A stretch of 64,000 bases of DNA from Octopus vulgaris (lineage: Eukaryota), in contig OX597840.1 in NCBI GenBank assembly GCA_951406725.2, positions 38,130,001 to 38,194,000 of the forward strand, read 5' to 3'. How positions within the stretch are numbered: position 1 is the stretch's first letter; each line of letters opens with the position of its first letter. A model generated the notes under the pieces. It worked only from the letters and a program-made list of their open reading frames with translations. It searched no databases and was not told the origin of the DNA. The translations under genes and the position numbers were made by a program. This document shows, piece after piece, positions 9,939-58,944 of this stretch.

Positions 9939-9948
9939 TGACTATATA

Positions 9949-10363
9949 TATTTCTTTACTACCCAGAAGCGGCTAAACACAGAGAGGACAAACAAGGGCA
10001 GACAAACGGATTAAGTCGATTACATCGACCAAAGTGCGTAACTGGTACTTAATTTATCGACCCCGCAAAGATGAAAGCCAAAGTCGACCTCGGTGGAATT
10101 TGAACTCAGAATGTAGCGGCAGGCGAAATATCTATTTCTTTACTACCCATCAGGGGCTAAACACAGAGAGGACAAACAAGGGCAGACAAATGGATTAAGT
10201 CGATTACATCAACCCCAGTGCGTAAATGGTACTTAATTTATCGACCCCGCAAGGATGAAAGCCAAAGTCGACCTGGGCGCAATTTGAACTCAGAACGTAA
10301 CGGCAAACGAAATACCGCTAAGCATTTCGCCCGGCGTGCGAACGTTCCTGCCACCTCGCCGCC
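9949..10363 (-). mobile_element. SINE family A tandem dimer with 15-bp TSD
   Basis: Two head-to-tail copies; flanks ccttctgactatata (9934-9948) and ccttccgactatata (10364-10378). Confidence 0.9.
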
Positions 10364-16767: not shown

Positions 16768-16772
<5 letters not shown>

Positions 16773-17062
16773 CCAGTGGTTAGGGCAGCGGACTCGCGGT
16801 CGTAGGATCGCGGTTTCGATTCCCAGGCCGGGCGTTGTGATTGTTTATTGAGCGAAAACACCTAAAAGCTCCACGAGGCTCCGGCAGGGGGTGGTGATCC
16901 CTGCAGTACCCTTTCACCACTCTTTCTCTCACTCTTGCTTCTGTTGGCCTGCTCGCTTAGCCAGCGGGGTGGCGTCATTCGGAGGCTAAAAGCAATGCGA
17001 ACGCATTGTGACAGCGATGTGTTACAACATCTGATTGTCTGGTCGGTCACGTGATCACGTGA
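16768..17062 (+). mobile_element. SINE family C with tail type 2, inserted in (TA)n
   Basis: Head atggcccagtggttagggcagcggactcgcgg...gtttcgattccc nearly identical to the 57749 copy; different tail ending gtcacgtgatcacgtga; (TA)n on both sides. Confidence 0.88.
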
Positions 17063-28133: not shown

Positions 28134-28442
28134 TAATAACAATAATAATGATAATAATAATAATAATAATAATAATAGAAATAATAATAATAATAATTTT
28201 CGTGTGTTTGTTTTAGACATTCACTATTACAACTCTAAAAAAACGAAATATATGGCACACTAGACATAACAACAACATGAACTTCCAACCTGTTGTCTCT
28301 TGAGAACTTGTACAAATATTAAGCAAAAGTCAAACATAGAATAATAATAATAATAATAATAATATGTATGATATGAATGATAAGGATTCAGATGTCGTTC
28401 ATGATGATGACGATGAGTTTGAAGATAATAGTGATAATAGTG

Positions 28443-28520
<78 letters not shown>

Positions 28521-28598
28521 TGTATGATATGAATGATAAGGATTCAGATGTCGTTCATGATGATGACGATGAGTTTGAAGATAATAGTGATAATAGTG

Positions 28599-28662
<64 letters not shown>

Positions 28663-28700
28663 TAATAACAATAATAATGATAATAACAACAATGATAATG
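28070..28700. repeat. (AAT)n tracts with a tandemly duplicated ~80-bp unit
   Basis: atgtatgatatgaatgataaggattcagatgtcgttcatgatgatgacgatgagtttgaagataatagtgat at 28363 and 28520. Confidence 0.9.
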
Positions 28701-32319: not shown

Positions 32320-33515
<1,196 letters not shown>

Positions 33516-34237: not shown

Positions 34238-34552
34238 TGGGCTCAGGACGTCCTTAAACGTCTACAACAAAAAATACGAAGCACGAGTACATGGAACATC
34301 AACTTCAAAAGACACAAATGGAAAACAAATCAGACAACATAAAGAACGACTCTTCGGGTTTTCACTGTTTTTCTTCTCCCGTATTTTGAGCATTTAACAA
34401 CAATATACACTTTCGATGAAGCATTTGTTCCCGCAAAGCAAATTAAATAAGATTCGAGATTTTGCGGAGGGTCAAAATTGCTGACAAAACAAGACAGTTA
34501 AAACAAAAAGGAAGCCTAAACAAGGTTGTGTGTATATGTATATGTACTATAT

Positions 34553-34595
<43 letters not shown>

Positions 34596-34965
34596 AAAAG
34601 GGCTTAGGACGTCCTTACATACTGAACTCATTATAGCACAAAAAAGATTTTCGAAGCCATTTCCAATACAAAGAAAATCTCAGAAGTGCTTACTCAAAAT
34701 AACCCACGAAGGTATGGGGGAAAACAAATCAGTGCACAACATAAAGAACGATTCTAGATCAGGTTTTCACATTTTTTTCGTCAGCCCAAAATTCTTAATT
34801 CGGCATTTGGAAAACAACAATACCCTTTTGGCGACTTTTCGACCTCAGAAGATTTGTTCCCGCAAAGCAACAGTTAAATAAATTCGAGATTTTGCGGAGG
34901 GTCAAAATTGCTGACACAAACAGGACAGTTAAAACAATTTTTCAGGAAGCCTAAACAAGGTTGTG
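34238..34965 (+). mobile_element. Two diverged tandem copies of a (TA)n-associated interspersed element
   Basis: Both start gggct(c/t)aggacgtcctta and end gattttgcggagggtcaaaattgctgaca...ggaagcctaaacaaggttgtg; related sequence at 41310-41480. Confidence 0.7.
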
Positions 34966-35271: not shown

Positions 35272-35777
35272 AACATCCTTTGCGTCCTGTTTTTCATTTA
35301 TTTCATTTGATATATATATCCTATTACCTATGCTTACATAGATAAAGTATTCACCCTGAATTTATTATATATATATATATATACACATATCCTCTGATCT
35401 ATTCACTCTTATACCGTTCTCCTAATCTAAATGTTTGCCGTCTTCCCTGAACTATACATCGACCTACCAGCGTATCTATATAATAGCTTCGTCTCAATTT
35501 GTCTCTGTCGCTTCTCGCTTAAGCAGCTCCGTTATTATCACTTTAATCATTAATTTCTTTTCGAATACCACACTTATATACATTTCCCAAATATTTGTTT
35601 AATTCTCTTGCATCGGCTTCGAATAACTTTATGGTCTTCAAATTATAGTCGTTACATAGGAGTATTGTGAATATATTCCATAATTTCTTTATGGTTTCCT
35701 TTAACAGGTAGAGAATGTATATCCGCACATTCATTGCTTCTGAGAATAAACGCGAAATATTGTAAGTCGTCAAGACA

Positions 35778-36215
35778 ACGAGCTTGCAGAATCGTTAGCA
35801 CGCCGGGGAAATTCTTAGTGGCATTTAAAATTTACGTTCTGCGTTCAAATCCCGAAGAGGTCGACTTTACCTTTCATCCTTTTGGGGTCGATAAATTAAG
35901 TAGCAGTCATGCACTGGGGTCGATGTAATCGACTTAATCCCTTTGTATGTCCTTGTTTATCCCCTTTATGTTTAGCCCCTTGTGAGCAATAAAGAAATAA
36001 GAAATAAAACAACGATCTTACAGAATCATTAGCACCCCGGGGAAATTCTTAGTGGCATTGAATACTTACTTTCTGAATTCTAGTCCCGAAGAGGTCGACT
36101 TTCCCTATCGTCTTTTAGGGGTCTATAAAATAAATACTAGTTGAGCATTGAGGTCGATGTAACCGATTTAACCCTCCCTCGAAATTGCTGGCCTTGAGGC
36201 GAAATTTGGCACCAA
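35778..36215 (+). mobile_element. Two tandem SINE family A copies
   Basis: gagcttgcagaatcgttagcacgccgg...ctttcatccttttggggtcgataaattaagta...aataaagaaata, then a second degenerate copy. Confidence 0.85.
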
Positions 36216-43532: not shown

Positions 43533-43949
43533 ATATATATATATATAAAAAGGAAAACAGGAAAACGGTGAAGGAAATGATCTCGTGTCTACCCCTGGGG
43601 AGAAACAAGCACAAACACGGAACATGATTGTAGCAATACTCCACAGCCGTATAGCGAGGGTGAAATGAAGTTTGCAGAGTAAAGAATAGAAAGTGACGCA
43701 GGGAAGGATGAAAGAAAAAGATGTAAAAGTGGTTATATAAAAATAAATGAGAATAGCATCGAAAAGGATAGAAACAAGAGGAGAGAGATCTCCTTCTGAC
43801 AACTGCAGGGACCCTCCGCTGTGTTATGATGAAAATATCGAAGCAGATGTGGGAACAATAAAATGGCGTTCAACGTTTTTCGAAGAGGAGACGATAGCTC
43901 ATATCCTTTTTCTGTTAGAATTATAAAAGTTGATACCGTTATATATGAT

Positions 43950-45200
43950 CAACACTTTGCAAAAGCCCTTTGCATAAGCGGCCCAAGTTACTTGAAGCAC
44001 TGGGATGAGAGCCTTATTCAATGAGTCAGTATTTAGTGTGTGATGATGCGCAGCCATCAACAAACACTCCAATCTCCAAAATCAACATTCGTTAACCACA
44101 GTCACGATAAGTCATGTCTATTCCCTTTCGTCATATCTCTGTGGAACCCAGACCGGGCGTTGTGAGTGTTTATTGTGCGAAAACACCTAAAAGCTCCACG
44201 AGGCTCCGGCAGGGGGTGGTGGCGATCCCTGCTGTACTCTTTCACCACAACTTTCTCTAACTCTTACTTCCTGTTTCTGTTGTACCTGTATTTCAAAGGG
44301 CCGGCCTTGTCACTCTCTGTGTCACGCTGAATATCCCCGAGAACTGCGTTAAGGGTACACGTGTCTGTGGAGTGCTCAGCCACTTACACGTTAATTTCAC
44401 GAGCAGGCTGTTCCGTTGATCGGATCAACCGGAACCCTCGTCGTCGGAACCGACGGAGTGCTTCCATCCATCCAGTGTATGATGATGCACAGCCATCAAC
44501 AAACACTCCAATCTCCAAAATCAACATTCGTTAACCAAAGTCACGATATAAGTCATGTTTATTCCATTTCGTCATATCTCTGTGGAAATGTCCATATAAC
44601 CGAATTACTTGTAGTTTTCGCTTTCTTTCACAAATTATTTTATTTTCGCACACATTCTACACTACAAGTTTGACACCGGTTGACTTGTATTTCTCCTACA
44701 ACTCATTTAAATGGTTCTTCTTTACCGTTTTGCCAACGAGTGGTTTACTGACCTTTGATTTACGCCCATACAGTCAGAAATGTTAATAAGTTCTTCCCGC
44801 CCCAATCTTTCATTTAATATATAATTAACAGATGTATGATTTCGTGTAGCGCACTTGATTCATAATTAGCTTTTTCTCCTTTTCTGTTTCATGCAGATAT
44901 TTCAACTTTGTCTAATTTACCATTCCAGCACAATAACGTTCAATGGGAAACATACATATTTTATTCGCGTATATCAAATTCCTTGAATAAATTTCGAACT
45001 TCAATACAAGATTTAATATTTTAAGTACGTCTTTTGACATTTCCGTCATTTCATCAAGCATAATGCAATCGAATTTCCTCATCATCATTACTATTAGATG
45101 ATAAGGACGTTGTTCCATTACAAATGTTAGATTGAAATGGCGGCTTCTCCTCCCTTTCTCAATGCTTAATCTATCAAAATTTGGTAAAGAAATTTCCATT
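43950..45200 (-). mobile_element. Highly decayed Tc1/mariner-superfamily transposase remnant, interrupted by a SINE
   Basis: Reverse translations DFGDWS..GCASSHT(N)TDSLNKAL (cf. D...WS.LE.KACATSH.N.DSLK.AL) and LTVWA (cf. VMVWA). Confidence 0.45.
44147..44473 (+). mobile_element. SINE family C with tail type 1, 5'-truncated, flanked by a 112-bp direct duplication
   Basis: About 95% identical to 57811-58136; flanks 44035-44146 and 44474-44587. Confidence 0.9.
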
Positions 45201-45528
45201 CCTAAATCTCAGTAACCTATATTCGGAAATTCAACAGGTAAATTAAATTCTTTCACTGAGTCAGTAAGTCATCAACGAAAAATTGGAAATTAACGGAAGG
45301 TGTTTTTCTCCCTAGATTTCTTATTATTAATTAGATATCAGAGCTCTAATAAATAACAAAGGGAAGCTGAGACTCGTCTTGGAAGATACCTATATATAAT
45401 GGCTATAGTTCCTAGTGACAACATTATCAGTAGAAGAAATAGCAAAAATATTAAGAAAAGCGTAGCTCTGAAGAGCTGCTATACGAAGGGCAAGAACAGC
45501 AATAGGAAGCTGCAAAACAAAAACAATA

Positions 45529-56085: not shown

Positions 56086-57748
56086 TAACTTTGACAAATG
56101 AATATTATTCATCCTTTGTTGTGTATGGGGGAAATCAGTGAAAAGAAACAAGATATCATCGGGTAAATGGTTACAACCCTTACGTTCTGAGTTCGACTCG
56201 TGCCAGGACAGGTTTTGAATTGGAGTGTGTGTGTTTGTCTGTTAACGCCGCTTGGTAACTGGTGTTGCTTTATTTACGTCCCCATAACTTAGTAGTTTAG
56301 CATAACAGTTCGTTGGAATAAGTACCCTGCTTTTAATATATAAGTATTGAGTGGAATACATTTGCCCGACTCAAACCCTTCGACGGCCGCAGTTCAATGA
56401 CTGACGCAAATAAAAGACGAGCACAAAATATCGATTTCGCTTAGAACACATTAGTTGCCGTAGTTATATAACAAGTAATTACAATTCATGTTTTTTTTGG
56501 TTAAAAATCTTGTCTTTCTTGTTCTGTTTAGACCAAAGACTCATTCGTAGCAGTCACTTCATATTTCATATTTATTTAAAGATTTCTTCGCCATATTTCA
56601 CAACGTTCGTAGAAAAATGACAAAAGCTCATTAATTATAATCGCTATTAAACTTTCTCTGGAAGAATCTCAGAGATTTTATTAATGTACACTATCATGAT
56701 AAATCATCGTTTAGAGAAGTGAAGAATATCCCAGAAAATGCCAACGGAAAATATCTGTCTAATCAATTATGTGTCGTTTACTGTGGTCATTAGTGTCTGA
56801 TTAGTTCAGAAAAGTAATTAGGAGGGGTCAAATCTCGATTATAATTTTCAAATGTTTAAGCCGCTCTTACCATCTGCTTCGTTACATTTCTATCTAACTT
56901 TTACAAATTGAACAGAAACCGTACACATCTCCAATACATTTTCCTGAAGGCGATTTTTACTATTTCCCATCTGTTCACTAATAAATGTCTTTATGATATG
57001 AATATAACTTTTAATCACCTATCTATTAGATATGTTCTTATTTATAAAACGCCTCTCGCCAACATTTTATTAAAGAGTCGCCGAGATATAAGTTTGAAAT
57101 ATAGATCAACGCCAACGTCCAGACTTCAGGTTAGACTTATATTTCCCTGATTTGTGAGACGTATCACGCATTTGCTATTTGCAACTAAACGGCTGACCAC
57201 GCTTTTCTGCATTTCTAAAATAGATTGCCCTCGTGGGCGACATTGTCCTTCCTTTCATATGCATTATCTCGCTTCGTAGGTATGTCTGTTCTCATTGATT
57301 TATAGGTCCAGCGATGGGTGAGTTGACAAATATTACTAGTCACGTATGGGTGTGAAGGTGCGTCGGGTAGCAGTCAGGGTGTTGCACCCGTGATCGTGAT
57401 ATCGTGATTTCGATTCCTGGACCGGTTTGTGGTTTATGCCCTTCATTTCACGCACTTCATTTTATGTTTTCTTGAGATTAATTTGGAATTTGACGCTTAG
57501 CACATCCACAGAGCACCTGTCCAGTTTATGTCAATTTTATGGGATGAGTGATCTAATGTACAGCATAAAATGTTGACCCCTATAAGAGAATCATCTCTAC
57601 GCATCGTACAACATGTTGTGGAACCCTGATCTGTCTTTTGCAACAGGACAGTCCGCAACATTTCACATACAAATATTAAGATCGGATTACTGAATCTCCC
57701 TTTCTTTGTGATACACCTCGCTGTCAAATATATATACTTCCTCCCTCG

Positions 57749-58136
57749 GGAGGCGCAATGGCCCAGTGGTTAGGGCAGCGGACTCGCGGTCATAGGGTCG
57801 TGGTTTCGATTCCCAGACCGGGCGTTGTGAGTGTTTATTGAGCAAAAACACCTAAAAGCTCCACGAGGCTCCGGCAGGGGATGGTGGTGATCCCTGCTGT
57901 ACTCTTTCACCACAACTTTCTCTCACTCTTACTTCCTGTTTCTGCTGTACCTGTATTTCAAAGAGGCGGCCTTGTCAGTCTCTGTGTCACGCTGAATATC
58001 CCCGAGAACTACGTTAAGGGTGCACGTGTCTGTGGAGTGCTCAGCCACTTACATGTTAATTTCACGAGCAGGCTGTTCCGTTGATTCGGATCAAGCGGAA
58101 CCCTCGTCCTCGTAACCGACGGAGTGCTTCCATCCA
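57749..58136 (+). mobile_element. SINE family C with tail type 1, full length, flanked by a ~219-bp direct duplication
   Basis: tRNA-like head ggaggcgcaatggcccagtggttaggg...gtttcgattccc; tail gacggagtgcttccatcca; flanks 57522-57740 and 58137-58358. Confidence 0.92.
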
Positions 58137-58944
58137 CAGGTAATGCCAATTTTATGGTATGAGTGATCTAATGTATAGCATAAACGTTTGACCCCAAAAA
58201 GCAAATCATCTGTACGCCTCGTTTAACAAGATATTGTGGAACCCTGATCTGTCTTTTGCCACAGGACAGTCCACAACATTTCACATAGAAATATTAAGAT
58301 CGGATTACTGAATCACGCCTTCTTTCTGATACACCTCGCTGTCAAATATATATACTTCTTCACTAAATTTGAAATTTTAGTAACCATTAATTCATCTTCA
58401 CTGAAGGGAAGACGGCCAGAAGAAATGCATTTGAGTTCATCGAGTTTGTTAGTTACATCATAGCCATGCATTTGTAGGTTTCTTAACCTGTTCGCACATT
58501 TTGATTAGCAGTTTTAAAGCTGAACTCATATTAAAAGCTGTGTTTCCATATATATGGTTATAGTCGTATAGATAAACTTAAATGCCGAACCGTGTCTACG
58601 ATCACGTTTACATTACACTTGGTTACAAAAGCTACAATCAATTCTCGTAAACACTACCAATGTTTTGCTTGTGAGCCATAATATCGCTTCGATTTAAATG
58701 TAAAATTGCTTCGATTTAAATGTAAAATCTTTGCTTTTAAAATAATAAATTCAGTTTGACATGAAAACGTAGTTCGATAAATGTGTTTACAGTTGTCTCA
58801 ATCAGCAGTTCCGTTCATCTCCGTTTAGAAATTCTTTAAACTACAAAGTCAAAGAGGTAGATTTTATTGGGAATTCGATTTGCTAACATTAATAGCTAAA
58901 CATTCCTCGTTTTATGCTCCAGTGTCTCATAAACGAAGGAAATA

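What the first reader, a model, noticed from the sequence alone, without database searches (positions are those of the whole stretch)
44035..44587. SINE with a 112-bp target-site duplication inside a fossil transposon
Seen: 44035-44146 and 44474-44587 are direct repeats (5 substitutions and one 2-bp indel by eye) abutting a 5'-truncated SINE exactly at both ends; the tail ends in (TCCA)n. Established: non-LTR TSDs are usually about 7-20 bp, as for family A here (12-16 bp). Because the target appears to be a Tc1/mariner relic, its consensus should contain the segment only once, which gives an internal control.
Basis: partly seen in the sequence, partly recalled or inferred. Interest (0 to 1): 0.72.

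Follow-up and report, generated by a model that had tools for sequence, protein, structure and literature searches.

The report
SINE insertion with 112-base target duplication
A short jumping element sits between two copies of 112 bases that a related species carries only once, likely because the second DNA cut during insertion fell unusually far from the first; such long scars are a rare (about 2%) tail of this element family and a known kind of event.

Summary
44035-44146 and 44474-44587 are direct repeats (5 substitutions, one 2-bp indel) that abut a 5'-truncated SINE exactly. A related species (two studies) has the segment once and no SINE, so the duplication belongs to the insertion. The target is not Tc1/mariner but a decayed non-LTR retrotransposon (R4/Dong-like) on the minus strand. 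Long duplications are not the family rule: of 324 other copies most have 7-17 bp (mode 11-12), 6 have 27-79 bp, none reaches 100. Copies cut at the same 5' point have short ones. A second copy 13 kb away has a ~225-bp duplication, also empty in relatives. The finding shows the family's T|A first-nick signature, so the likely mechanism is normal target-primed reverse transcription finished at a distant second nick, as described for L1 and L2 in cultured cells. I found no report for cephalopod SINEs. The scan noted long target duplications before on other DNA (e.g. e1-10627074), not for this family in my look-ups. Real, cleanly proven, but a new example of a known kind.

The parts
44035..44146 (+). 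left copy of the 112-bp target-site duplication
   Evidence: present once in organism C, aligned without gaps (table 8)
44147..44466 (+). SINE body, 5'-truncated at consensus position 66 (just after the B-box/T-loop-like motif), 98.4% to family consensus
   Evidence: 2738 first-look candidates in the genome
44467..44473 (+). 3' tail, extra TCCA-type units
44474..44587 (+). right copy of the duplication (114 bp, with a 2-bp insertion)
   Evidence: organism C lacks the 2 extra bases (0 gaps against the left copy)
43903..45229 (-). decayed non-LTR retrotransposon (region downstream of the RT domain; R4/Dong-like by motifs) that served as the target; limits are those of the paralogue alignments
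57522..57746 (+). second case: left copy of a ~225-bp duplication
   Evidence: single copy in organisms C and F
57749..58136 (+). second case: near full-length copy of the same SINE (96.4% to consensus) with tail
58137..58364 (+). second case: right copy (228 columns, 87.7%)

Best explanation
The SINE sits between two copies of a 112-base segment that is single in a related species, and the duplication was likely made in the insertion itself by target-primed reverse transcription in which the second-strand nick fell 112 bases downstream of the first instead of the usual 11-12. Shown: exact abutment, single-copy empty site, family-type T|A junction at the 3' side, a 5' end at a point where this family is often cut, and a graded tail of 27-228-bp duplications in the family. 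Inferred: a partner LINE protein nicked the bottom strand at the T|A site and copied the SINE RNA, stopping near the T-loop; the top strand was then opened at a distant, probably host-made or pre-existing nick (or the cDNA end jumped onto the top strand there); the 112 bases between were unwound and filled in on both sides; the two copies then drifted apart neutrally. It has no evident function; it is an insertion scar in dead LINE DNA.
For: Empty site: one contig of organism C in each of two studies runs 43965-44146 then 44608 onward with no SINE (table 8, X10 and X14). Paralogues L033 and L034 align colinearly across the in-silico empty site. First-nick signature: T before the duplication in 165 of 222 short-TSD copies; among the 156 that start with A, T at -1 in 91% and T at -13 in 58% (background 32%); the finding has T|A and T at -13, and of the 8 long cases 5 have T|A and 6 have T at -13. 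17 other copies truncated at positions 64-66 (of 45 loci examined from 54 pattern hits) show this cut point arises in ordinary insertions: 12 have 7-14-bp duplications, 3 lie in microsatellites, 2 have none called, 0 are long. All 6 long cases outside the window are full-length at the 5' end, so long duplications do not need a later break in the element. Age fits: 5 substitutions seen, 3.5 expected from the element's divergence, P(>=5)=0.27. Same outcome known for L1 and ZfL2-2 in cells (PMC5223499, PMC2666801 passages).
Against: Sequence cannot tell a distant nick from a template jump or from repair after insertion. This is the only truncated copy with a long duplication (0 of 45 other truncated copies, 6 of 279 full-length), which leaves room for a later repair event. 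The last bases of the repeat resemble the first 5-6 bases of the full-length SINE, which a plain truncation does not explain. In organism C the 20 bases after the segment are represented by 6, so the empty site is not perfectly colinear at that edge (L034 has no gap there). At the second site the repeats are more diverged than the element predicts (25 seen, 15 expected, P=0.013), though organism C also differs at 34 of 254 bases there. The partner LINE was not identified.
Confidence: 0.8

Rival explanations
1. The SINE first inserted normally (full-length, 11-12-bp duplication). A later double-strand break in its head was repaired by copying about 100 extra bases from the empty allele (aborted synthesis-dependent strand annealing) and end-joining to position 66, giving truncation and long duplication together.
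For: Geometry fits exactly; this is the only truncated copy with a long duplication among 46; microhomology-like match of the repeat end to the SINE start.
Against: Position 64-66 is a preferred end of ordinary insertions (17 cases, against 3 at a control position 114-116), which a random later break would rarely hit; 7 other long duplications flank copies intact at the 5' end.
Confidence: 0.12
2. A tandem duplication arose first in this lineage and the SINE later landed at its junction.
For: The genome is rich in short tandem duplications; the empty site comes from a species about 8-9% diverged, so a duplication after the split is not excluded.
Against: The SINE would need to hit the junction to the base and leave no duplication of its own; the same exact abutment recurs at 7 other copies; repeat divergence matches the element's age.
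Confidence: 0.05
3. Assembly artefact: two haplotypes joined across a heterozygous SINE.
Against: Copies differ by 5 substitutions and an indel. In organism B, about 1% from the window, the flank contig ends at 44080, the last 31-base word unique to the left copy, as expected if both copies exist there (inference from k=31). At the second site a contig of organism D runs from the flank through the left repeat into the SINE head with 3 differences in 876 bases.
Confidence: 0.02

Closest known systems
Long target-site duplications of L1 insertions in cultured cells (Servant et al., PMC5223499; passages read)
   Same: Normal endonuclease site at the 3' junction, duplications over 100 bp, explained by use of a more distal nick; under 10% of events in repair-proficient HeLa cells.
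   Different: Here a germline, inherited SINE insertion in an invertebrate with a non-poly(A) tail; frequency of 100 bp or more is below about 1.1% (0 of 324 unselected copies).
L-TSD class (>20 bp) of LINE inserts in DT40/HeLa (PMC4245944, PMC2666801; passages read)
   Same: A rare long class beside a sharp short mode (ZfL2-2: 1 of 25 with 1228 bp in wild-type cells).
   Different: Engineered LINEs in cell lines, not endogenous SINE copies with an empty orthologue.
R9 of rotifers (title seen in a reference list; 126-bp length recalled) and C. elegans Rte-1 (about 200-bp repeat, recalled; title seen)
   Same: Natural non-LTR insertions with duplications of 100-200 bp.
   Different: R9 is site-specific and makes the long duplication every time; here it is a rare tail of a dispersed family.
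RTE-mobilised SINEs (Nishiyama and Ohshima, PMC6007223; passages and section 15 read)
   Same: Mode of 10-12 bp, A at the first duplicated base with T before it (horse SINE), T excess upstream, short-repeat tail.
   Different: T excess here peaks at -13 to -16, not about -10; no shared 3' end with an RTE LINE was shown; that study searched only 10-49 bp.

Membership tests
Target-site duplication of a non-LTR insertion | direct repeats abut the element at both ends | tested here: met
Target-site duplication of a non-LTR insertion | empty site carries the segment once | tested here: met
   organism C, two studies; paralogues L033, L034
Target-site duplication of a non-LTR insertion | family endonuclease signature at the 3' junction | tested here: met
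   T|A and T at -13
Target-site duplication of a non-LTR insertion | repeat divergence fits element age | tested here: met
   P=0.27 for the finding; P=0.013 (excess) at the second site
tRNA-derived SINE | short, high-copy, dispersed, short-repeat tail, variable duplications | tested here: met
   385-nt consensus; 599, 1312 and 4962 exact matches to three tail patterns
tRNA-derived SINE | tRNA-related head with A and B boxes | tested here: inconclusive
   box-like motifs by eye and recall; ARAGORN found 0 tRNA in the window and Rfam gave no tRNA match on 57700-58200
Tc1/mariner (target) | DDE transposase similarity | tested here: not met
   no transposase Pfam hit in 24 frames of the window or 9 frames of paralogues; relatives carry RT-type sequence instead
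Tc1/mariner (target) | terminal inverted repeats with TA duplication | not tested
   element ends not recoverable
R4/Dong-type RLE LINE (target) | RT domain upstream of the matched region | tested here: met
   window frame matches L245, L248, L250, L251 at E 5e-5 to 5e-4 (tblastn E 3e-6 to 0.02); RVT_1 upstream in L250 (E 0.001) and L245 (E 0.024), both below Pfam's cut-off
R4/Dong-type RLE LINE (target) | C-terminal CCHC knuckle and PD..D..K nuclease motif | tested here: inconclusive
   seen by eye in the relatives' frames (motif identity recalled); zf-RVT E 1.7e-7 in a neighbouring frame of L251; not recovered in the window's own left flank
R4/Dong-type RLE LINE (target) | placement in the R4 clade on an RT tree | not tested
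   no reference sequences on hand; PDB searches gave nothing
RTE-mobilised SINE | duplication mode 10-12 bp, A first, T before | tested here: met
RTE-mobilised SINE | T stretch about 10 bases upstream | tested here: inconclusive
   T excess at -13 to -16, none at -10
RTE-mobilised SINE | 3' end shared with an RTE LINE | tested here: inconclusive
   a scan of the 1.6 Mb of held loci with the last 90 bases listed only short partial matches, not followed up; no genome-wide LINE search was made
R9-type obligate long duplication | all copies carry the long duplication at one target | tested here: not met
   0 of 324 other copies reach 100 bp

The most novel reading that the evidence does not exclude
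The position of the second nick in this germline is set by local chromatin rather than by the LINE protein alone: certain loci favour distant nicks (two cases over 100 bp among 7 copies in 314 kb, none among 324 elsewhere) and long duplications fall into preferred sizes (27-32 and 72-79 bp, the latter near one nucleosomal DNA turn). Thousands of dated SINE copies with empty orthologues would then give a natural map of the unsolved second-strand step. Present support is weak: local excess P about 0.02-0.07, size clustering P 0.08-0.32.
Probability: 0.12. Interest if true: 0.6.

Novelty: new member of a known kind. Interest (0 to 1): 0.3.

Why it matters
The nuclease that cuts the second strand in non-LTR insertion is still not settled (PMC4859970, passage). 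Long duplications are mostly known from cell assays, and two genome surveys I read capped the search at 30 or 49 bp (PMC2912911, PMC6007223), so inherited cases can be missed. This is a proven inherited case with a first frequency estimate for the family (about 2% at 25 bp or more). Scaled to several thousand copies it means on the order of a hundred small segmental duplications from one SINE family; inside an exon or splice site such a scar could duplicate rather than break sequence. At this locus it lies in dead LINE DNA and has no evident effect.

Tried and rejected
Tc1/mariner target: rejected. Long duplication as a family trait: rejected. Link to 5' truncation: not supported (0 of 45 truncated, 6 of 279 full-length). 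5' microhomology as a general cause: not supported; 74 of 99 full-length short-TSD copies have none and the other long cases show none or extra bases. Preferred sizes of long duplications: not significant. Strong secondary structure in the duplicated segment: only weak folds (-12 kcal/mol for 112 nt, no shuffle control). One search used the wrong reading frame and gave nothing. PDB sequence searches gave nothing. My recall of a long duplication in the NF1 series was not borne out: 6-17 bp there. Szak 2002 and the R9 paper were not held. Organism F has no cover over the first site, so it says nothing there. Family A: 0 long repeats in 86 near-full copies, 50 with no duplication called. A last batch of 20 more family copies could not be added to the sample. 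Supplements of the papers were not opened.

Full report
Observation. The two segments 44035-44146 and 44474-44587 align over 114 columns at 93.9%, with five substitutions and two extra bases on the right. The score is 192 against at most 30 in 300 shuffles. A consensus of 385 nt was built from the 29 best genome relatives. The element between the repeats matches positions 66-385 with 5 mismatches in 320 and ends in a short TCCA-type tail; neither junction has spacer bases. The family has thousands of copies (599, 1312 and 4962 exact matches to three tail patterns). The head looks tRNA-derived by eye, but ARAGORN and Rfam did not call it.

Empty site. Two paralogues of the target align straight across a site with one repeat and no SINE (L034 over about 730 bases, L033 over about 790). 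Public runs of related organisms were found. In organism C, from two studies, one contig covers 43965-44146 (15 differences, no gap) and continues at 44608; no SINE lies between (table 8). Six letters stand for the 20 bases 44588-44607, so organism C is 14 bases shorter just behind the segment; L034 has no gap there, which points to a separate deletion in C. In organism B (4 differences in 481) the flank contig stops at 44080, the last 31-base word unique to the left copy, as expected if both copies exist there (inference).

The target. No transposase family was hit in 24 frames of the window or 9 frames of paralogues. The minus-strand frame finds relatives in the genome at E 5e-5 to 5e-4, confirmed by tblastn over 44552-45100. 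Those relatives carry reverse-transcriptase sequence upstream (RVT_1 E 0.001 and 0.024, below cut-off) and, by eye, a CCHC knuckle and a PD..D..K nuclease motif downstream. The target is therefore a decayed non-LTR retrotransposon, R4/Dong-like by recalled motifs; the clade was not tested. Dong-R4 LINEs are reported in octopus (PMC13282606, passages). Tc1/mariner is not supported.

Family survey. I measured 331 copies with an intact 3' end, at least 85% identity and at least 400 bases of flank on each side (up to 2.5 kb searched); copies failing these filters were dropped. Seven lie in the 314 kb around the window; 324 lie elsewhere: 255 from tail-pattern places taken in genome order (mostly contigs 1-4) or lying beside them, 30 from best-hit loci, 38 from truncation-pattern loci, 1 other. 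Of the 324: 240 have 7-17 bp (mode 11-12), 6 have 27, 29, 32, 72, 78 and 79 bp, 30 lie in microsatellites and 48 have none called. Swapped flanks gave 12 false calls in 236, 10 of them 7-8 bp. So 25 bp or more: 6 of 324 (95% interval 0.7-4.0%); 100 bp or more: 0 of 324 (under 1.1%). Duplications longer than the flank would be missed. Long cases: 0 of 45 truncated and 6 of 279 full-length copies. Of 54 pattern hits for a cut at 64-66, 45 were examined; 17 are true truncations and none has a long duplication. A control pattern at 114-116 gave 3 truncations in 26 hits.

Second case. At 57522-57746 / 58137-58364 a near full-length copy has a ~225-bp duplication at 87.7%. Organism C (two studies) and organism F carry the segment once with no SINE; organism D has a contig from the flank into the SINE head. 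The repeats are more diverged than the element predicts (P=0.013), but the segment also differs by 13% from organism C. Finding one such case among the six other local copies has a chance of about 0.02-0.07: a weak hint of a local effect. Another retroposon family shows 130-208-bp flanking repeats at two loci (no empty site checked); family A shows none in 86 copies.

Mechanism. Short-duplication copies begin at T|A (T before the repeat in 165 of 222) with a T excess at -13. The finding has both marks; 5 of the 8 long cases have T|A and 6 have T at -13. The 3' junction is thus an ordinary endonuclease-primed start. The 5' end falls where this family is often cut. The divergence between the repeats fits the element's age (P=0.27). 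The simplest account is target-primed reverse transcription with the second strand opened 112 bases downstream and the gap filled on both sides. The first nick, the distant second nick and the fill-in are inferred; sequence cannot separate a distant nick from a cDNA jump onto the top strand. Repair from the empty allele after insertion is the main rival. Mode 11-12 with A first resembles RTE-driven SINEs (PMC6007223, passages and section 15), but an earlier scan note names a Tx1-tailed SINE in this genome (e1-8672730, untested, family identity unknown), and the partner was not found.

What is known. L1 inserts with duplications over 100 bp make up under 10% of events in HeLa cells and 57-91% in cells lacking nucleotide-excision repair, explained by use of a distal nick (PMC5223499, passages). 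A long class over 20 bp is standard in LINE assays (PMC4245944, PMC2666801, passages). L1 duplications are said to range up to several hundred bases (PMC1291365, passage citing a paper not held). R9 makes an exceptionally long one (title only). Disease insertions in NF1 had 6-17 bp (PMC3219598, passages). Ten full-text searches listed no paper on long duplications at cephalopod SINEs; passages of PMC13282606 and PMC4758252 showed none. Most subscription papers are outside the library. Scan look-ups showed long duplications in other genomes but none for this family.

Verdict. A real and well-proven long target-site duplication at an inherited SINE insertion, in a fossil LINE rather than a DNA transposon. 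It is the far end of a roughly 2% tail in this family and a new example of a known kind. Interest 0.3; the bolder reading, that chromatin sets the second nick, has a probability of about 0.12.

Noticed in passing
window 57522-58364: Second copy of the same SINE with a ~225-bp duplication; single-copy empty site in organisms C and F; its target is itself an older dispersed repeat (86 first-look candidates). A short inverted match to the SINE start lies at the 5' junction.
   Followed up: yes
SINE consensus positions 64-66 (loci L177-L213): Preferred 5' truncation point right after the T-loop adenine equivalent: 17 truncated copies among 45 loci examined versus 3 among 26 at one control position (binomial P=0.004 on 16 vs 3). 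Could be a reverse-transcriptase stop at a modified base (inference).
   Followed up: partly
L105:5489-6302 and L109:5558-6543: A different retroposon family with an (ATG)n-type tail also has long flanking repeats (188-208 bp at 87%; about 130 bp at 96%, the latter enclosing a second, Helitron-like piece by eye). No empty site checked.
   Followed up: partly
L214: One head plus a second body starting at position 65, enclosed by a single 79-bp duplication.
   Followed up: partly
L167: 78-bp duplication whose far end lies 5 bases before the head of an older related SINE in the same orientation; homology may have guided the 5' join.
   Followed up: no
window 32320-32568 / 33138-33381: 249-bp direct repeats (97.6%) separated by 570 bp of pure (AT)n/(AC)n microsatellite.
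   Followed up: no
window 9944-10314, 28340-28676, 34320-34965, 35775-36154: Several short tandem or near-tandem duplications (184 bp inside a family A SINE; 156 bp in a low-complexity frame; others at 77-82%).
   Followed up: no
window 16768-16945: Element with the same head and first 194 bases as this SINE but another 3' part, sitting in an (AT)n tract.
   Followed up: no
window 44140-44146: The end of the duplicated segment resembles the first 5-6 bases of the full-length SINE although those bases are missing from this copy; chance or a trace of annealing.
   Followed up: partly
whole genome G000: 2.8 Gb with about 30 large contigs and this repeat make-up fit an octopus (inference from recall; no call names the organism).
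   Followed up: no
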